From IMG/VR virus record IMGVR_UViG_3300042922_000549, positions 1 to 53,047 of that record: 53,047 nt of DNA; one strand, 5' to 3'. The notes beneath the pieces are model-generated. The model worked only from the letters and a program-made list of their open reading frames with translations, searched no databases and was not told where the DNA came from. This document shows, in pieces, positions 1 through 53,047 of the stretch (position 1 is the first letter of the stretch; every line of letters starts with the position of its first letter). Made by a program: the position numbers and the translations under genes. The stretch comes from a virus. Its lineage: Duplodnaviria; Caudoviricetes.

Positions 1-127
1 TTTACCTTCTACATAAATATTTAAATTCTTTTTATTCATTTAATTACCTCCGTAAGTTTATTTGTTGTATAATACTTCTAAAGGCCGTTGGCCTTATATT
101 TATAAGGGAAGGAATATTTATTGTTTA
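1..127. repeat. 127-bp direct repeat, identical to 52921..53047 (circular assembly overlap)
   Basis: Exact identity of the first and last 127 nt; 127 is a common assembler k-mer size. Confidence 0.95.
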
Positions 128-142
128 ACCCCCCCTCCCCCT

Positions 143-2016: not shown

Positions 2017-2518
2017 GTTTCTTACCTCCTTTGTTATATACTATTGTAATTATAAGTAAACTAGCAATTGCTGCAAATGCATATCCAGTTATTATACCTA
2101 CAGCAAATCCATTATAATAAGCTCTTACCATTTCCTCTTTCTCCTTTGTTTTGTCTCATAATGCATCCATAAATTTCCCTTTTTGCATAGCTTACAAGTT
2201 GTCCCATCTCCGTGTTCCTTATACCAACAATTTACACAATACATACAATTTCTTTTACCATTAGTCATTTTTATTTTCTTCCTCTCTTAACTGTGCTTCT
2301 GCTTCATCTAAGTTGTCAAACATATCATTAATCTCTTGTATAGTAAAAAATCCTTTGTCTGCTAATGTCAACACTAATTGCTTTAAAACAATTATAACAA
2401 ATTTCATTTAGCTCCTCCTTATCCTCCTCATAGGGTTATCAAAATGGCGTATAATTAACGGAATATAATTTGTTAAGGATTTATATTATGGGATATATTC
2501 CGTTAATTTTACTATTAC

Positions 2519-11054: not shown

Positions 11055-11376
11055 TAGTTTTTACTCCACCATTCCTATACAATATATTTCCTATATATAA
11101 GTCAAGTCTTTCTTTATCTTCTTTATTTAACCTATAATACAAATCAAATCCTGTTGACCCATCAAAATCGTGAAACACATAATAATACATTGAGCTTTTA
11201 AACGCTTTTCTAAATTCATTCTGGTAACCTACAAGTTGTTTACAATTATCATCATAAACTTTATCAGTAACCAACTGTAAGTCTGTTTCATAATATAGAA
11301 AACTTTGCACTAATATCCATCTTTGCAAAGCATCTATCTTTTCTTTTTCAGTAAAGTAAGGATTTATAAAATTCAT
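11023..11376 (-). CDS. stand-alone protein resembling domain Ia of NAD+-dependent DNA ligase
   Basis: SFLYYETDLQLVTDKVYDDNCKQL matches the LigA Ia Y-Y-x(7)-D-x-x-YD pattern. Confidence 0.6.
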   Translation of the reverse strand: MNFINPYFTEKEKIDALQRWILVQSFLYYETDLQLVTDKVYDDNCKQLVGYQNEFRKAFKSSMYYYVFHDFDGSTGFDLYYRLNKEDKERLDLYIGNILYRNGGVKTNGKSKKKKNR

Positions 11377-11627
11377 AACTTATTCCTTTTTACAAATATT
11401 CCATCTTCTACTAAAAAATCATAATACTCATTTGTAAATACTCGTATTGTACAATTATTTTTTCTTATAACTGTATTATTTTTCATTAAATACCGAACAA
11501 TTAGTTTGAATATTAGTTCATTTATTCTCTTTTTAATTTTCATAAAGCTTGTCCTCCTCTGAGATAATAAGGAAGGTGGCTTATGCCACCATTCCAACCA
11601 TTGCTTTGTAATATTTATTTGATACAT
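11373..11627 (-). CDS. hypothetical protein (likely start ~11543)
   Basis: GAGGAGG RBS precedes the internal MKIKK. Confidence 0.55.
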   Translation of the reverse strand: MYQINITKQWLEWWHKPPSLLSQRRTSFMKIKKRINELIFKLIVRYLMKNNTVIRKNNCTIRVFTNEYYDFLVEDGIFVKRNKL

Positions 11628-27705: not shown

Positions 27706-27718
27706 TTCCCATCCCCCT

Positions 27719-44423: not shown

Positions 44424-46313
44424 TTATTTTCCATCAATTAATGCTTTCAGATAAACTGTTGTCTTATCTACTCCAGTAACTATAAATCTTGTACCTTTTT
44501 GGACTAACATTTCTTTCTCACTTTGAAAATTACTTATAGGGCTTATATATGCAGCTTTAGTTCCAGTTGGAAGTTCTATCCTAAAATCAATTTCACTATG
44601 GAATCCTTTGCCTGTAATTGGTGTTGTGCTTAAAAATCCTTTATCTTCAGATATTCTTCCAATTAAACTATTTGCATTCTCATTCATCCATTTACTTGAA
44701 CCCATTTGCTTAGCTATGTCCCTTTCATTAAACATACCAGCTAATGAAGTAATACTTGCTCCTCTTCTTACATATACAGTTTCTTTAAGAACGGACTTAT
44801 CTAAAGCCTTTATACAATCATTTATGTAATTAGTATTATATTCAATTTCATCTTTGTCATATTTATTAAGGTCTTTACCTCTAAGTATATCGTTCATAGA
44901 ATGATATGAACTACCTGTATATCTTGAAACTGCCCTTTTTTCTTTCATGCTTAAATTTCTAACCCAATCATCATGCATTGAAAGTAACTCATTTTCAAAA
45001 GCTGAACTTTTTTGCTTAGAAAGTCCTGTATCAATTTGATTTACTATTGCTTTGAAATCATCATCAGTCATTTTAGCTATATCTTTAGGAATTGGTTTTG
45101 ATTTTACAGGTTTAGTAGGAATTACAACTTTTTGTTTTTGTTTAGCCTTTCCTATATTGGCTTTTAAATATTCTGCATATTCCAACTTATTAATATCATA
45201 TTGTATGCCTAACTTTTTACTTGATGGAGTATTATCCTCAATTGCTTTCTTTGTTTTTTGAATAGTGTTATTTAAAGCTATTTCATTGTCCTCATATCCA
45301 TCAAATTTATCTTTTAAGTATGTAGCTGTTTCTTTGTCAAACTTATCTAACGGATTTTTAGGCTGCGTAAATTTATCTGTATTGTATAAAGCATTTGCAT
45401 AGTTATCAAGCTCGGGGTCCTCTTTTCCTTCTGCCCAATCCGCTATTCTATCTGCTATATTCTCAAGGCTATCAACTATCTTACTAGCTAGAGTACATAA
45501 TCCATTCGGATGGTCCAATGGCACTTGGTCTTTTGGAAATATACCTTTACCTAATCCATACTTATCTTCTGTAGCTCTTTGTATACATAATTCACAAGTC
45601 CTATTATGAGCATGTGCACTCAACCACTCTATTCCTTCTACAAAAGGATTGGGTTTACTTGTTTCTATTACACTTTGCTGATAAGCATGATTTACTAAAG
45701 TCCTTGCTAGTCTTTGTGCTACATAATCTACTTTCTTTCTTGAGTTTGGATATACTTTATTCCAATCCCATGGTTTTTTAGCTTCTGGATTCACATATGT
45801 TTCTAAGTCTTTTGCCATCTCATAAGTAGTTTTATTCTGGGCTATTCCTTCTGCTACTATTTGATTTATTTCATTTAATTTCTTTTGGTCATCTCCCCAT
45901 AAAGCTTTAGTTAATGTCCAATCCTCTTGATATATCTTGCCGGCAGATACATTCTTAACAATATCTTTAGGAACATGGTTATAAGCTTCCTCTATACTAA
46001 ATCCTACCTTTTTAAGAAAGCCTTTATTATCATTAACTACTTCAGTGCAAACAGTTTCCATATTATCTTCAATTGCCTTCTTTACTAAAGCTCTTGAATT
46101 GTTATATTCCTTAGCAATCTTGCCTTTTAGTTTATTAAGCTCTTCTGTCATTAAAATACTGCTTATATTTTCTTTGTATTTTAGTTTCTCTAGCTCAACT
46201 TCTATATTATCATAAACATGCTTGTAAATCTTGTTAATGTCCTTTTGCTGTTTAACTAATATCTCCTGTTTTGCCTTACTACTATTCAGTAAGTTAAGCT
46301 TATTATCTGCCAT
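44424..46313 (-). CDS. MuF/gp7-like minor head protein fused to a C-terminal ADP-ribosyltransferase (VIP2/C3-like)
   Basis: RLARTL...CELC...HPNGLC (MuF); YT..SY..MN..LR, VRRG, FLSTT, SEKE (R-S-ExE). Confidence 0.9.
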   Translation of the reverse strand: MADNKLNLLNSSKAKQEILVKQQKDINKIYKHVYDNIEVELEKLKYKENISSILMTEELNKLKGKIAKEYNNSRALVKKAIEDNMETVCTEVVNDNKGFLKKVGFSIEEAYNHVPKDIVKNVSAGKIYQEDWTLTKALWGDDQKKLNEINQIVAEGIAQNKTTYEMAKDLETYVNPEAKKPWDWNKVYPNSRKKVDYVAQRLARTLVNHAYQQSVIETSKPNPFVEGIEWLSAHAHNRTCELCIQRATEDKYGLGKGIFPKDQVPLDHPNGLCTLASKIVDSLENIADRIADWAEGKEDPELDNYANALYNTDKFTQPKNPLDKFDKETATYLKDKFDGYEDNEIALNNTIQKTKKAIEDNTPSSKKLGIQYDINKLEYAEYLKANIGKAKQKQKVVIPTKPVKSKPIPKDIAKMTDDDFKAIVNQIDTGLSKQKSSAFENELLSMHDDWVRNLSMKEKRAVSRYTGSSYHSMNDILRGKDLNKYDKDEIEYNTNYINDCIKALDKSVLKETVYVRRGASITSLAGMFNERDIAKQMGSSKWMNENANSLIGRISEDKGFLSTTPITGKGFHSEIDFRIELPTGTKAAYISPISNFQSEKEMLVQKGTRFIVTGVDKTTVYLKALIDGK

Positions 46314-46430
46314 TTGAGTTCACCTCCTAAAGTAATTGGAATGGCTTTAGTATATTATATAATTATTATATGGATAAACACTTTACATGGATATTTCCGT
46401 TAATCTAAAGCCATTCTAGTAACCCTAAGA

Positions 46431-50758: not shown

Positions 50759-50787
50759 ATTATACATCATAAAAAGTAATATGTACA
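50759..50787 (-). promoter_or_regulatory. sigmaA-type promoter
   Basis: TGTACA-N17-TATAAT. Confidence 0.7.
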
Positions 50788-51003
50788 CATTTATTTTTAA
50801 AAATCTTTAAAATTATTTATAAACTGTTTTACTTCAAATCTTGCTCTACTTTTAATCTGCTTGCATTCAACTTTATATCCTAATTTGCTTCTTGTTTGGT
50901 TATATCTTCCATACTCTCCTTTTTTAACAAAGGGATTATCATATTCATTTCTTCTTAACCCGTATGGTCTCATTTTTATTATTACCTCCGTAAGTTTTTA
51001 TTT

Positions 51004-51078
51004 TGGCATAAGCTACAGGAATCGAACTCTGTATCACTGAATTGGCGCCCAGTGGTTTTACCCTTAAACTAAGCTTAT
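51004..51078 (-). tRNA. atypical tRNA/pseudo-tRNA (Gly-GCC- or Trp-CCA-like loop; identity uncertain)
   Basis: Acceptor ATAAGCT/AGCTTAT, D arm GTTT/AAAC, TTCGATT loop, encoded CCA; 8-nt anticodon loop and bulged T stem. Confidence 0.65.
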
Positions 51079-51276
51079 ATAAGTTTTAAGCAAGAACAGC
51101 CTTTCGCCAAAACTTACTTGTTGAGTTCCATATAATATGGTCTATCCGCGATACCGAACATACATATTAAATCAATACTTCAACTCTTCATGCAGTGTAG
51201 TAATCGTCTCTTCCTGCACAGTTTTTATTTGGATAAATTTACCAGCTTTATCCTTAGGATATACATATGACCCTAA

Positions 51277-51342
51277 TGGAAAGTACAGGATTTGAACCTG
51301 TTATTGATAGCATTGCTCTCTTACCTCCAAAGGACACTTTCC
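51277..51342 (-). tRNA. tRNA-like element with degenerate anticodon arm
   Basis: Perfect acceptor GGAAAGT/ACTTTCC and T arm ACAGG-TTCAAAT-CCTGT; no canonical 7-nt anticodon loop, no CCA. Confidence 0.55.
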
Positions 51343-51343
51343 G

Positions 51344-51493
51344 AAAATGCAGTATAATTTTATATAAACGAAGTTGGTCATTGGGGGACCATTTATCTAT
51401 AATTAAATACTGCATTTTACAAAGTACAAAAACTAAATTTTACTCAATATAGGGGGAACTAATATCTTTCAAAGCCTTTTTGTACTTTGTAAA
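51344..51493 (-). ncRNA. two tandem long hairpins with C-rich cores (putative sRNA)
   Basis: 12-bp and 17-bp perfect inverted repeats, each enclosing TCCCCC. Confidence 0.45.
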
Positions 51494-51513
51494 GGGGAGG
51501 GCCAATAGGCCCG

Positions 51514-52116
51514 TTATTTTAACTTTTTAACTAATACTCTGAAATGTATGCATTGTATATTCCAACCACCAGCAGTTATTGTATCAACTTTGCATCTTCC
51601 ATTTTCACCAACTATTATTCCATTTAATTCTGAATTTTCAGCTACTTTCAAATAACTTGCATCTATTATTTTGCCAATTGCTTTTTCAACTCTACTAATA
51701 ATATTGGCTTTCTTTACTTTTACTTCTTTATCAAGTATTTCATCTAAGTCTGAAATTCTTTCAAGAATGTATATTGTTGACTTTCCAACTCTTTCTTCAA
51801 ATAATTTTCTAAACTCATAATTTATTTCACTTTCTAATCTTTCTTTGATATGATTGTAAGTACTGTTTCTGTTATAAGCTTTATTACACCATTCTTCATG
51901 TGCTTTAATTTCTTCAAACAGTTGGATAATTTTTTCATCTGAGTATTTTCTTTCATACCCTTGATGATACTTTGTAACCTTTTTAAGATTTTCTGTATTT
52001 ACTTCATATGTTTTAGTTCTTACTTCTTTGTATTCTTCAAATTTTGCTAAGTAATACTTCTTTGCCTCTTGTTTCCAGTTTTCTAAAAATGTATCAATTA
52101 CTTTTAAATTTTCCAT
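51514..52116 (-). CDS. hypothetical phage protein
   Basis: 200 aa; C-terminal ITAGGWNIQCIHFRVL motif; own promoter. Confidence 0.8.
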   Translation of the reverse strand: MENLKVIDTFLENWKQEAKKYYLAKFEEYKEVRTKTYEVNTENLKKVTKYHQGYERKYSDEKIIQLFEEIKAHEEWCNKAYNRNSTYNHIKERLESEINYEFRKLFEERVGKSTIYILERISDLDEILDKEVKVKKANIISRVEKAIGKIIDASYLKVAENSELNGIIVGENGRCKVDTITAGGWNIQCIHFRVLVKKLK

Positions 52117-52153: not shown

Positions 52154-52182
52154 ATTATACATCAAATAAATTCGTTTGTAAA
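52154..52182 (-). promoter_or_regulatory. sigmaA-type promoter
   Basis: TTTACA-N17-TATAAT. Confidence 0.75.
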
Positions 52183-52479: not shown

Positions 52480-52959
52480 TTATTTAAGTTCTTCTCTTAA
52501 TCTCATTAATGTTTTACCTAATTGATTTTTTCCTCTTTTAGTATAGTAGTCAACTCCCCAGTATAAGTCTCCCCAGAAATTTCCTTCCTGTATTAACTTA
52601 TTGCCAGTAGATTTAAGTACTTTCAAACATTCAGGATTGTTAAGCATTTTATTTTTAACTATATCATACATTACTTGGTCTTTTACTTCATCCCAATCAG
52701 GTCTTAAAAACATAAAGTTTGGATTTTTACCACAATATTTAGCTTCACTAGCATCCATAGTTGTAAATAATTTTCTCATATTCATATCTTTTGTTTTAGC
52801 TGCCTGAAAAGCTGCTTCACTATTTGTATAAATTAAGCCTTCATATTCAACAATAATGTTAGGGTAAAAATTATCAATTGGAAAGTATGGACTACCTTCA
52901 AATATATAATATATTACATTTTTACCTTCTACATAAATATTTAAATTCTTTTTATTCAT
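52480..52959 (-). CDS. NADAR-family hydrolase (YbiA-like)
   Basis: NFY, SEAAFQAAK, RPDW, LKSTG...EGN.WGD.YWG...GKNQLGKTLM. Confidence 0.92.
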   Translation of the reverse strand: MNKKNLNIYVEGKNVIYYIFEGSPYFPIDNFYPNIIVEYEGLIYTNSEAAFQAAKTKDMNMRKLFTTMDASEAKYCGKNPNFMFLRPDWDEVKDQVMYDIVKNKMLNNPECLKVLKSTGNKLIQEGNFWGDLYWGVDYYTKRGKNQLGKTLMRLREELK

Positions 52960-53047
52960 TTAATTACCTCCGTAAGTTTATTTGTTGTATAATACTTCTA
53001 AAGGCCGTTGGCCTTATATTTATAAGGGAAGGAATATTTATTGTTTA
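52921..53047. repeat. 127-bp direct repeat, identical to 1..127
   Basis: Exact identity. Confidence 0.95.

What the first reader, a model, noticed from the sequence alone, without database searches (positions are those of the whole stretch)
51004..51512. About 510 nt of ORF-free, back-to-back RNA structures punctuated by tRNA-like elements
Seen, in minus-strand order: a GGGCC/GGCCC hairpin, 17-bp and 12-bp rod hairpins, a tRNA-like element, then hairpins TTAGGGT/ATCCTAA, GGATAAA/TTTATCC, TGCAG/CTGCA, GAGTT/AACTC enclosing CCATA/TATGG, AAGTTTT/AAAACTT, and a second tRNA-like element ending in CCA. This is the largest non-coding stretch in a tightly packed genome and lies downstream of a strong promoter (52154-52182) with no clear U-tailed terminator in between. 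Inference: a polycistronic ncRNA cassette in which tRNA-like folds direct RNase P/RNase Z cuts to release small RNAs, or one large structured RNA. Large phage ncRNAs such as GOLLD and ROOL often lie beside tRNAs, but I cannot match this region to either.
Basis: partly seen in the sequence, partly recalled or inferred. Interest (0 to 1): 0.7.

Follow-up and report, generated by a model that had tools for sequence, protein, structure and literature searches.

The report
Orphan phage tRNA-like RNA cassette
A soil phage carries a 540-base gene-free stretch that folds into strong RNA hairpins and two tRNA-shaped elements that cannot decode. It sits where related phages keep ordinary tRNA genes, and no other phage searched has it.

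Summary
Window 50974-51513 (minus strand) is the largest non-coding stretch of a complete 53-kb phage genome. Its minus strand folds far better than shuffles (z -3.7); the plus strand does not (z -0.9). It holds two tRNA-derived elements:
- TLS2 (51004-51078) passes Rfam tRNA (33.8 bits, cut-off 29), but has an aberrant 6/8-nt anticodon loop and a bulged T stem.
- TLS1 (51277-51342, 21.2 bits) has perfect acceptor and T arms, with a triloop hairpin in place of the anticodon arm.

Default ARAGORN calls neither. Two long hairpins upstream (z -3.8, -6.7) show CCCCC in their apical loops. That is 2 of only 4 such runs on this strand.

No promoter of the phage's own conserved type lies inside the stretch, so it is probably co-transcribed from P52164.

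No homolog was found in 50,697 phage records, 160 TerL-related loci or 50 whole virus records, apart from one TLS1-like element beside a tmRNA in an unrelated phage. Covariation is therefore untestable and no RNA data exist.

Best reading (0.42): a lineage-specific, tRNA-island-derived ncRNA cassette whose tRNA-like modules act as RNase P/Z processing signals. Main rival: decaying tRNA genes plus ordinary hairpins. Interest is moderate.

The parts
52154..52182 (-). Promoter P52164 (TTTACA-17-TATAAT). It belongs to a phage-wide family, TTGTTTACAAAC-N11-TGATGTATAAT, and is the presumed source of transcripts through the cassette.
   Evidence: 11 of 12 consensus matches; six exact minus-strand copies of TGATGTATAAT plus near copies, all intergenic, against 3.6 expected by chance. 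None lies inside 50974-51513.
51514..52116 (-). 200-aa ORF directly upstream, function unknown (weak DUF5855 hit).
   Evidence: E 0.0039, below cut-off; only 6 other homologs, all at 40% identity or less.
51490..51512 (-). H0: the hairpin GGGCC-UAUU-GGCCC, 3 nt after the stop codon, followed by the C-rich tail UCCCCUUU, which contains CCUCC. It has no U-tract, so it is at best a weak terminator.
   Evidence: CCCC run at 51497.
51416..51493 (-). H1: rod hairpin with a 17-bp perfect stem. An inner stem presents an apical loop, UUCCCC(C).
   Evidence: z -3.83, 1 of 200 shuffles as good. (I13, 100% complementary). (CCCCC at 51456).
51344..51418 (-). H2: rod hairpin with a 12-bp perfect outer stem, an inner stem with G-U pairs, and the apical hairpin UGGUC-CCCCAAU-GACCA. 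It ends 1 nt before TLS1.
   Evidence: z -6.68, 0 of 200 shuffles as good. (I15). (CCCCC at 51387).
51277..51342 (-). TLS1, a 66-nt tRNA-like element.
- Acceptor stem GGAAAGU/ACUUUCC, 7 bp.
- D arm CCU-UUGG-AGG.
- The anticodon arm is replaced by a 15-nt hairpin with an AAU triloop.
- Perfect T arm ACAGG-UUCAAAU-CCUGU.
- Discriminator A, no encoded CCA, trailer UUA.
   Evidence: Rfam tRNA 21.2 bits, E 0.0017, below cut-off 29. (the minimum-energy fold is this cloverleaf). (ARAGORN only at -ps80). (the only exact GGTTCRANYCC in the genome). (L082 relative; 2 compensatory D-stem pairs).
51231..51276 (-). H3 and H4: two adjacent 7-bp hairpins, each with a 9-nt loop.
   Evidence: z -1.62; not significant alone.
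51079..51219 (-). H5 (51190-51219), H6 (a long imperfect hairpin, 51120-51184) and H7 (51079-51117). H7 ends at the base before TLS2. H6 holds the genome's only CGCG.
   Evidence: z -2.51, 4 of 200 shuffles as good..
51004..51078 (-). TLS2, a 75-nt tRNA-like element with encoded GCCA.
- Perfect 7-bp acceptor stem (A1-U72, G73).
- Normal D arm with GG.
- T loop UUCGAUU on a stem with one bulged A.
- Anticodon arm of 5-6 bp, with an 8- or 6-nt loop (GCGCCAAU or CGCCAA), no U33, and the palindrome GGCGCC.
   Evidence: 33.8 bits, cut-off 29. (ARAGORN -ps90: tRNA-?(Gly|Trp)(cc)).. (GGCGCC occurs twice in the genome).
50797..50973 (-). 58-aa basic ORF directly downstream. Its ribosome-binding region ACTTACGGAGGTAAT starts 9 nt after the CCA of TLS2.
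   Evidence: No Pfam or PHROG family.
50759..50787 (-). Next promoter of the same family (P50769). It marks the end of the transcription unit that holds the cassette.

Best explanation
The stretch is a lineage-specific non-coding RNA cassette derived from a phage tRNA island.

**Proposed mechanism.**
- It is transcribed on the minus strand as part of the unit that starts at promoter P52164, reading through the 200-aa gene and the weak H0 hairpin.
- The two tRNA-like modules keep the acceptor/T-arm helix, T loop and D-loop GG that host RNase P and RNase Z/CCA-adding enzymes recognise. They have lost decoding ability.
- They therefore act as punctuation. RNase P would cut before G51342 and A51078. 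RNase Z would cut after A51277, since TLS1 has no CCA and a UUA trailer. TLS2 would be trimmed to its encoded CCA.

**Expected products.**
- A roughly 150-nt double-rod RNA (H1-H2) with C-rich apical loops.
- A 66-nt and a 75-nt tRNA-like RNA.
- A roughly 200-nt structured spacer RNA.
- The mRNA of the 58-aa gene with a short leader.

**Shown.** The folds, their strand specificity, their tRNA ancestry, the non-coding status, and the promoter layout.

**Inferred.** Transcription, the cleavages, and any action of the released RNAs. One such action would be pairing of the C-rich loops with G-rich ribosome-binding sites.
For: **Strand-specific structure.**
- Minus strand z -3.71 against plus strand z -0.90.
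- H1 z -3.83; H2 z -6.68.

**Composition unlike the rest of the genome.**
- C is 16.5% of the minus strand here, against 10.6% genome-wide and 10.2% in 1,906 nt of other intergenic DNA.
- A and U are about equal.
- The region ranks 7th of 1,051 sliding windows for C content.

**tRNA ancestry.**
- Rfam tRNA scores 33.8 and 21.2 bits. These are the only two matches in the genome.
- The region holds the only exact T-arm motif GGTTCRANYCC in the genome, plus one copy with one mismatch.

**Intact stems, missing anticodon loops.**
- All modelled stems are intact: 20 of 20 pairs in TLS1 and 21 of 21 in TLS2 are standard pairs. The minimum-energy folds reproduce the cloverleaves.
- Neither anticodon loop is canonical.
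- Random decay would be expected to hit all stems, not only the decoding part.

**Transcription layout.**
- No phage-type promoter lies inside the stretch. Promoters flank the unit at 52164 and 50769.
- The only hairpin between promoter and cassette has no U tail.

**Same genomic niche as real tRNAs.**
- Relatives L075/L080, L074, L069/L071 and L096 have ordinary tRNAs (Gln, Met) in a roughly 400-nt non-coding gap just upstream of terS/terL.

**C-runs.**
- 2 of the 4 CCCCC runs on the 53-kb minus strand lie in the apical loops of H1 and H2.
- A third C4 run follows H0. That is 3 of 17 separate C4+ runs within 110 nt.

**Precedent.**
- Non-canonical tRNA-like 't-elements' direct RNase P/Z cuts in plant mitochondrial transcripts (PMC1920247, abstract and passages read).
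- T4 makes small RNAs of unknown function, RNAC and RNAD (PMC9697503, passages read).
Against: **No expression data.**
- There is no evidence of transcription or processing.

**No homolog, so no covariation test.**
- 0 of 50,697 phage records matched by blastn.
- 0 of 162 fetched loci (1.48 Mb) matched beyond a 25-28-nt T-arm match in L082 and L083.
- 0 of 49 TerL-related whole virus records hold a TLS1-like element.
- The closest relative, L002 (TerL 80%), has small ORFs and no gap at the equivalent place.

**Weak points in the fold evidence.**
- TLS2 is no more stable than shuffles (z +0.43).
- H3/H4 are not significant.
- The genome has other long intergenic hairpins, at 2408-2518 and 46314-46430 (z -2.2 and -2.9). 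Rods as such are therefore not special to this cassette.

**Other concerns.**
- H0 could still stop much of the transcription, and no internal promoter was found.
- The bulged T stem of TLS2, and hairpins abutting both tRNA-like 5' ends, might hinder RNase P.
Confidence: 0.42

Rival explanations
1. Decaying remnant. The phage lineage once carried two ordinary tRNA genes at the usual place upstream of the terminase genes. Both are now pseudogenes. The other hairpins are ordinary gene-end terminators or stabilisers of the kind found elsewhere in this genome. The stretch has no function of its own.
For: - Relatives hold working tRNAs in the same niche.
- Both elements fail default ARAGORN, and TLS1 fails the Rfam cut-off.
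- The cassette is absent from the nearest relative and from all others searched.
- Other intergenic rods exist in the genome.
- TLS2's fold is not better than shuffles.
Against: - 540 nt of junk would be the exception in a genome whose next-largest gap is 293 nt.
- All helices of both elements are intact and only the decoding loops are lost.
- The 17-bp and 12-bp stems are perfect.
- C content and the rare CG-type words (CGCG, GGCGCC) have not relaxed to the genome's strand bias.
Confidence: 0.3
2. At least TLS2 is a working but unusual tRNA. It would be a Trp- or Gly-type acceptor (A1-U72, G73, CCA/GCC in the loop) with an expanded or contracted anticodon loop. It might serve for frameshift or quadruplet reading, or as a cleavage-resistant or decoy substrate against host anticodon nucleases.
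For: - It passes the Rfam tRNA cut-off.
- Its overall length is canonical and it has an encoded CCA. U8, A14, the GG of the D loop and the T-loop consensus are all intact (alignment; sequence).
- ARAGORN at -ps90 reads tRNA-?(Gly|Trp)(cc).
- A NADAR-domain gene lies 1.4 kb upstream. Its role against host defence is recalled, not tested here.
Against: - There is no U33 and no 7-nt loop.
- There is a bulged T stem and a variable region of only 2-3 nt.
- The fold is no more stable than shuffles.
- All genes read cleanly under code 11 with dense ORFs, so no recoding need is seen.
- No paper describing natural phage tRNAs with such loops turned up in the one literature search made. Its 7 listed hits concern engineered or suppressor tRNAs; only the listing was seen.
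Confidence: 0.1
3. A DNA-level element. The long inverted repeats would act as protein-binding or cruciform sites, for example a regulatory operator, a replication origin or a packaging signal upstream of terS. The tRNA-like parts would be incidental.
For: - There are perfect 17-bp and 12-bp inverted repeats.
- The H1 arms contain TTTACAAA, as in the -35 box of the phage promoter family.
- The stretch lies 850 nt upstream of terS.
Against: - Folding is strand-specific: the minus strand is much better than the plus strand. It relies on G-U pairs that are mismatches in DNA or on the other strand.
- The arms of the different rods share no common sequence.
- tRNA ancestry points to RNA.
- TTTACAAA is an expected chance word in a 30% GC genome. 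This is my own estimate, not a computed result.
Confidence: 0.08
4. Small-peptide coding. The 19-codon frame MLSITGSNPVLSIRVICIS (ATG at 51313), with GGAGG 10 nt upstream, or another short ORF, is the real product.
For: - The Shine-Dalgarno-like GGAGG is at a spacing seen for real genes here, which is 6-11 nt.
Against: - The GGAGG is the D arm and the ATG is the triloop hairpin of a tRNA-like fold that scores against the Rfam tRNA model.
- The other 7 short ORF starts checked have no Shine-Dalgarno sequence.
Confidence: 0.03

Closest known systems
Phage tRNA gene islands upstream of the terminase genes, including 'pseudo-tRNAs'
   Same: - Same genomic niche, orientation and layout: ORF, leader hairpins, tRNA, spacer hairpins, tRNA, ORF. 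TerL relatives L075/L080/L074 (tRNA-Gln + tRNA-Met) have this layout.
- TLS2 aligns best to those tRNAs (33.3 bits).
   Different: - Neither element here has a usable anticodon loop.
- The leader and spacer are much longer and more structured: 170 and 200 nt.
- There is no sequence similarity to the relatives' islands.
Plant mitochondrial t-elements, tRNA-like processing signals (PMC1920247; abstract and passages read)
   Same: - Non-canonical cloverleaves with a conserved T arm (the GGTTCRANYCC motif), embedded in longer transcripts next to mRNAs.
- They are proposed, and partly shown, to direct RNase P and RNase Z cuts.
   Different: - Organellar, not viral.
- No transcript ends are mapped here.
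- TLS2 has one mismatch to the motif.
T4 tRNA-region small RNAs RNAC/RNAD (PMC9697503, passages read). That they are co-processed with the tRNAs is recalled, not from a call.
   Same: - Small phage RNAs of unknown function associated with a phage tRNA cluster.
   Different: - T4 also keeps eight working tRNAs.
- No sequence or Rfam relation was tested, beyond the absence of any Rfam hit here.
Murine gammaherpesvirus 68 TMERs and the MALAT1/mascRNA system (recalled, not from a call)
   Same: - A viral or cellular tRNA-like fold used as an RNase P/Z handle to release a linked non-coding RNA.
   Different: - Eukaryotic, with Pol III or nuclear processing.
- The linked hairpins there are pre-miRNAs.
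- There is no homology.
C-rich-loop regulatory sRNAs of Firmicutes, RsaE/RoxS type (recalled)
   Same: - Unpaired C4-5 runs are displayed in hairpin loops and in a single-stranded UCCCCUUU stretch. These could pair with G-rich Shine-Dalgarno sites.
   Different: - No Rfam family of this type matched even at E up to 10.
- There is no own promoter or terminator.
- No target has been shown.
GOLLD and ROOL large RNAs
   Same: - Phage or prophage location near tRNA-like sequence.
   Different: - No match at the gathering threshold in the window, or at E up to 10 in the region.
- The fold here is a chain of local hairpins, not a large multi-domain RNA.

Membership tests
tRNA (Rfam RF00005) | Score at or above the curated gathering cut-off (29 bits) | tested here: inconclusive
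   TLS2 scores 33.8 bits and meets the cut-off. TLS1 scores 21.2 bits (E 0.0017) and does not.
tRNA (Rfam RF00005) | 7-bp acceptor stem stacked on a 5-bp T stem with a 7-nt T loop of the T-psi-C-R-A type | tested here: met
   TLS1 has all 12 pairs and the loop UUCAAAU. TLS2 has a perfect acceptor stem and the loop UUCGAUU, but its T stem has one bulged A.
tRNA (Rfam RF00005) | 5-bp anticodon stem with a 7-nt loop carrying U33 and a purine at position 37 | tested here: not met
   TLS1 has a 15-nt hairpin with a 3-nt loop (or 4 bp plus GCAAUGC, without U33). TLS2 has a 6- or 8-nt loop without U33.
tRNA (Rfam RF00005) | Called by a standard tRNA finder at default settings | tested here: not met
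   ARAGORN finds 0 genes in the window. It finds TLS2 only at -ps90 and TLS1 only at -ps80. tRNAscan-SE was not available.
t-element-like processing signal | tRNA-like fold with the conserved T-arm motif GGTTCRANYCC inside a longer transcript | tested here: met
   TLS1 matches exactly and TLS2 has 1 mismatch. There is no other exact copy in 53 kb. The position inside a transcription unit is inferred from the promoter layout.
t-element-like processing signal | Transcript ends that coincide with the ends of the element, or cleavage by RNase P/Z | not testable with these tools
   No RNA run was listed for this sequence.
tmRNA | tRNA-like domain formed by the 5' and 3' ends around a tag reading frame; detected by ARAGORN or Rfam RF00023 | tested here: not met
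   ARAGORN at default finds none. Only noise-level 'permuted' calls appear at -ps80. Rfam finds none. As a positive control, both tools found the tmRNA of L082.
GOLLD / ROOL / other Rfam ncRNA | Covariance-model match | tested here: not met
   Only tRNA passes. The six other hits at E up to 10 are eukaryotic snoRNA or miRNA models and one viral pseudoknot model, with E from 0.8 to 8.1.

The most novel reading that the evidence does not exclude
The cassette is a phage device that uses two non-decoding tRNA mimics as RNase P/Z handles to cut regulatory RNAs out of an mRNA.

The released H1-H2 RNA would be a viral counterpart of the C-rich-loop sRNAs of Firmicutes. Its three exposed C-runs (UCCCCU, UCCCCCU, UCCCCCA) would pair with G-rich ribosome-binding sites or leaders.

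Candidate targets in the phage itself:
- The G5AG7 run at the start of the early transcript (129-141). Its best predicted duplex partner on the whole minus strand is H0 and its C-rich tail: -23.1 kcal/mol, against a mean of -10.6 and sd 3.3 over 2,116 windows.
- The GGGGGA ribosome-binding site of the 747-aa gene at 27717.

The freed tRNA mimics could in addition titrate host tRNA-binding enzymes or defence nucleases.
Probability: 0.12. Interest if true: 0.7.

Novelty: new variant of a known kind. Interest (0 to 1): 0.38.

Why it matters
**If the tRNA-like modules are processing handles.** This would be a bacterial-virus example of tRNA punctuation. That principle is known from mitochondria, a herpesvirus and MALAT1. 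It would show that phage tRNA islands can evolve into factories for non-coding RNA once decoding is lost.

**Practical point.** Standard tRNA finders miss such elements. Default ARAGORN found none here. It also missed the L082 element and the element in L049/L163. Such modules may therefore be under-counted in phage genomes.

**If it is only a decaying tRNA island.** It remains a useful example of how such islands erode.

**Either way.** The present evidence rests on one genome.

Tried and rejected
**Homolog searches with no useful result.**
- blastn (distant mode) of 611 nt against 50,697 phage records: no match.
- Exact-word scans of IMG/VR with the TLS1 5' 33-mer, the TLS2 3' 24-mer and the H2 apical 17-mer: 0 hits each.
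- The TLS1 3' 24-mer gave 1 IMG/VR hit (L082) and 1 hit in species genomes, an Acaryochloris tRNA-Met(CAT). This argues against a copy of a host tRNA 3' end, that is an attP-type origin, at exact-match level. It gave 0 hits in metagenome contigs.
- Relatives of the 200-aa flanking protein: none in IMG/VR. Only 6 distant proteins in the big protein set, and no DNA context was available for them.
- TerL relatives: 80 IMG/VR loci (best 80% identity) and 80 metagenome loci (best 67%). blastn and nhmmer with the region found nothing beyond T-arm words.
- Models R1 and R2 over 99 loci found only ordinary tRNAs plus the L082 element.
- R1 over 50 whole virus records matched 1 of 50, which is L082's record.
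- Rfam over 14 loci found only L082's tmRNA.

**Sequencing runs.**
- No RNA holder was listed. Two soil-metagenome DNA runs hold the sequence.
- Laying their contigs gave no variants in the region. X2 did not cover it.

**Ideas rejected.**
- An internal sigma-70 promoter: none on the minus strand at 9 of 12 matches or better inside the cassette.
- A second large non-coding gap at 11055-11580: it is coding.
- A shared 'C-rich-loop rod upstream of tRNAs' theme in relatives: seen only in L075, and not in L069, L053 or L074.

**Covariation.**
- TLS1 against L082 gives 2 compensatory D-stem pairs, but with two sequences the shuffle control is not significant (131 of 500 shuffles as high).

**Literature.**
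- Three searches returned nothing that describes a cassette like this (listings only).

Full report
**What the window is**

The window is a complete IMG/VR virus record of 53,047 bases. Its two ends repeat over 127 bases, which looks like an assembly overlap of a circular map. GC content is 30%, and in a greedy selection of non-overlapping ORFs of 45 aa or more, 80 of 87 lie on the minus strand.

PHROG and Pfam hits give this order along the minus strand:
- small early genes, including a NADAR-domain protein;
- the region in question;
- TerS, TerL, portal and head proteins;
- tape measure and tail proteins;
- DNA polymerase and nucleotide-metabolism genes.

The best TerL matches are phages of Clostridium, Anoxybacillus and Bacillus, at under 60% identity. 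The host is unknown, but it is probably a low-GC Firmicute.

**Checking the observation**

The stretch between the 200-aa ORF (51514-52116) and the 58-aa ORF (50797-50973) is 540 nt.
- My ORF tally first showed a second gap of 526 nt at 11055-11580. Reading it showed two ordinary genes with ribosome-binding sites.
- The stretch is therefore the largest non-coding one; the next gap is 293 nt.
- Of 8 short ORF starts inside the stretch, 7 have no Shine-Dalgarno sequence. All 8 neighbouring genes checked have a GGAGG-type one.
- The exception is a 19-codon frame inside TLS1, which I take to be chance.

Only CCATA/TATGG is not in the minimum-energy fold.

Folding statistics:

| Segment | z-score | Shuffles as good |
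|---|---|---|
| Whole 521 nt, minus strand (-133.3 kcal/mol) | -3.71 | 0 of 100 |
| Whole 521 nt, plus strand | -0.90 | 17 of 100 |
| H1 | -3.83 | 1 of 200 |
| H2 | -6.68 | 0 of 200 |
| Middle 147 nt | -2.51 | 4 of 200 |
| H3/H4 | -1.62 | 15 of 200 |
| TLS1 | -1.85 | 12 of 200 |
| TLS2 | +0.43 | 126 of 200 |

The structure signal is real and strand-specific. It is carried mainly by the two rods and the middle part.

**The tRNA-like elements**

Detection:
- ARAGORN at default finds nothing in the window.
- Rfam finds one tRNA at 51007-51078, 33.8 bits against a cut-off of 29.
- A search of the genome with the tRNA model alone also finds 51277-51342 at 21.2 bits (E 0.0017). It finds nothing else.

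TLS2 (alignment):
- It has a perfect acceptor stem with A1-U72 and G73, and an encoded CCA.
- U8, a normal D arm with GG, and the T loop UUCGAUU are all present.
- The T stem has a bulged A.
- The anticodon arm is a 5-6-bp stem with an 8- or 6-nt loop without U33. ARAGORN at a 90% threshold reads it as tRNA-?(Gly|Trp)(cc).
- The loop holds GGCGCC, one of two copies in the genome.

TLS1 (66 nt):
- It has a perfect 7-bp acceptor stem and a perfect T arm. The T arm carries the only exact GGTTCRANYCC motif in the genome.
- The D arm is 3 bp with a UUGG loop.
- A 15-nt triloop hairpin stands where the anticodon arm should be.
- Its minimum-energy fold is exactly this cloverleaf.

Both elements are clearly tRNA-derived. 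Neither looks able to decode. All their helices are intact.

**Other features of the stretch**

- C makes up 10.6% of the minus strand genome-wide and 10.2% of other intergenic DNA. Here it is 16.5%, with A and U about equal.
- Only four CCCCC runs exist on the minus strand. Two sit in the apical loops of H1 and H2, and a CCCC run follows H0.
- The only CGCG in the genome lies in H6.
- The phage has a strongly conserved promoter family, TTGTTTACAAAC-N11-TGATGTATAAT. There are six exact minus-strand copies of the 11-mer plus near copies, all intergenic.
- One promoter lies at 52164, before the 200-aa gene. The next lies at 50769, after the 58-aa gene. None lies inside the stretch.
- H0 has no U tract.
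- The simplest reading is co-transcription: 200-aa gene, cassette, 58-aa gene.

**Relatives**

Nothing similar was found:
- blastn against phage records gave no match.
- Three exact-word scans of IMG/VR gave 0 hits.
- The 200-aa protein has no relatives in IMG/VR. In the large protein set it has six distant relatives, with no DNA context.
- 80 IMG/VR and 80 metagenome loci around TerL relatives were fetched. The best are 80% and 67% identical.
- These loci share no DNA similarity with the stretch beyond T-arm words.
- The closest, L002, shares only TerS upstream of TerL. It has small ORFs where the cassette would be.

Covariance models gave the following:
- Models of TLS1 and TLS2 found ordinary tRNAs in relatives: L075/L080 tRNA-Met, L096 tRNA-Gln, and others.
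- They found one real TLS1-like element, in L082, at 40 bits.
- Over 50 whole virus records, only L082's record matched.

Two points follow.
- Several TerL relatives keep ordinary tRNAs in a roughly 400-nt non-coding gap just upstream of terS/terL. The cassette therefore occupies the usual tRNA niche.
- The L082 element lies directly after a tmRNA in an unrelated 95-kb phage. It shares TLS1's acceptor stem, T arm and UUGG D arm, with two compensatory D-stem pairs. Two sequences prove little, though (131 of 500 shuffles as high).

The TLS1 3' 24-mer occurs in only one of the species-representative genomes, in an Acaryochloris tRNA-Met. An attP-like copy of a host tRNA end is therefore not supported.

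**Expression**

Only two soil-metagenome DNA runs hold the sequence, and no RNA run was listed. Expression is untested.

**Interpretation**

I favour (0.42) a lineage-specific cassette derived from a tRNA island. It would be transcribed with its flanking genes. The tRNA-like modules would serve as RNase P/RNase Z substrates and cut the transcript into structured RNAs and the downstream mRNA.

- The argument rests on what is kept and what is lost. The features read by the processing enzymes are intact, and the decoding features are gone.
- It also rests on the strong, strand-specific rods and on the composition.
- Precedents exist. Plant mitochondrial t-elements are one (PMC1920247; abstract and passages read). 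T4's RNAC and RNAD, of unknown function, are another (PMC9697503; passages read). MHV68 TMERs and mascRNA are recalled, not from a call.

The main rival (0.30) is simple decay of two tRNA genes among ordinary hairpins.
- It is supported by the lack of any conservation.
- It is supported by other rods elsewhere in the genome.
- It is supported by TLS2's unremarkable stability.

Lesser rivals are an unusual working tRNA (0.10), a DNA-level element (0.08) and a small peptide (0.03).

The boldest reading not excluded is that H1-H2 is a C-rich-loop regulatory RNA released by the tRNA mimics.
- Candidate partners are the G5AG7 run at the start of the early transcript and a GGGGGA ribosome-binding site.
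- That pairing may be no more than composition: the most C-rich site pairing with the most G-rich site.

**Verdict**

- This is a new variant of a known kind: a phage tRNA island, here with only non-decoding tRNA mimics and long structured spacers.
- Interest is moderate.
- Supplementary files of the papers were not consulted.

Noticed in passing
window 2785, 12887, 13833, 25424, 44402, 50769, 52164 (minus strand); variant at 143-190: A strongly conserved phage promoter family, TTGTTTACAAAC-N11-TGATGTATAAT, occurs in intergenic gaps. It probably defines the transcription units of the genome.
   Followed up: partly
window 129-141 (minus strand): A G5AG7 run lies right after the -10 box of the promoter variant, so probably at the 5' end of the transcript of the NADAR operon. 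It is the only such run in a 30% GC genome. Its best predicted duplex partner on the whole minus strand is H0 and its C-rich tail at 51490-51512 (-23.1 kcal/mol). It also folds onto UUCCUUCCC in its own leader.
   Followed up: partly
window 44424-46313 (-) and 52480-52959 (-): The 629-aa head-morphogenesis protein has a C-terminal part that hits an ADP-ribosyltransferase PHROG (residues 432-617, E 1.5e-13). A NADAR-domain protein (ADP-ribose-related) is encoded 1 kb upstream of the cassette.
   Followed up: no
L082 4545-5047 (minus strand): In an unrelated 95-kb phage, a tmRNA (Rfam 74.3 bits) is followed after 3 nt by a 95-nt tRNA-like element that ARAGORN misses. It has a G3-U70 pair and discriminator A73, which are alanine-type features as in tmRNA itself (recalled). 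It has a GGAGGUU loop, and its T arm and acceptor 3' strand are identical to TLS1's.
   Followed up: partly
L163 about 1145-1245; L049 about 150-250: Two TerL relatives carry a long tRNA-like element 4.8 kb upstream of TerL. It has acceptor GCUGUGU/ACAUGGC, a T arm like TLS1's, and an oversized anticodon arm. ARAGORN does not call it.
   Followed up: no
window 2408-2518 and 46314-46430 (minus strand): Two other intergenic rod hairpins have large AU-rich loops containing UCCCAU or UCCAUAU: a 15-bp perfect stem (z -2.2) and a 12+9-bp stem (z -2.9). The second overlaps the ribosome-binding site of the next gene.
   Followed up: partly
window 50981-51003 and 52963-52983 (minus strand): Nearly the same leader, AAATAAA(AA)ACTTACGGAGGTAAT, precedes both the 58-aa gene (right after TLS2's CCA) and the NADAR gene. 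It may be a module boundary used in recombination.
   Followed up: no
window 1-127 and 52921-53047: The 'direct terminal repeat' is exactly 127 nt. That length suggests an assembler overlap of a circular contig rather than a physical terminal repeat.
   Followed up: partly
window 51257-51313 (minus strand): A 19-codon frame (MLSITGSNPVLSIRVICIS), with GGAGG 10 nt upstream, lies inside TLS1 and H3. It is probably chance, since the GGAGG is the tRNA-like D arm.
   Followed up: partly
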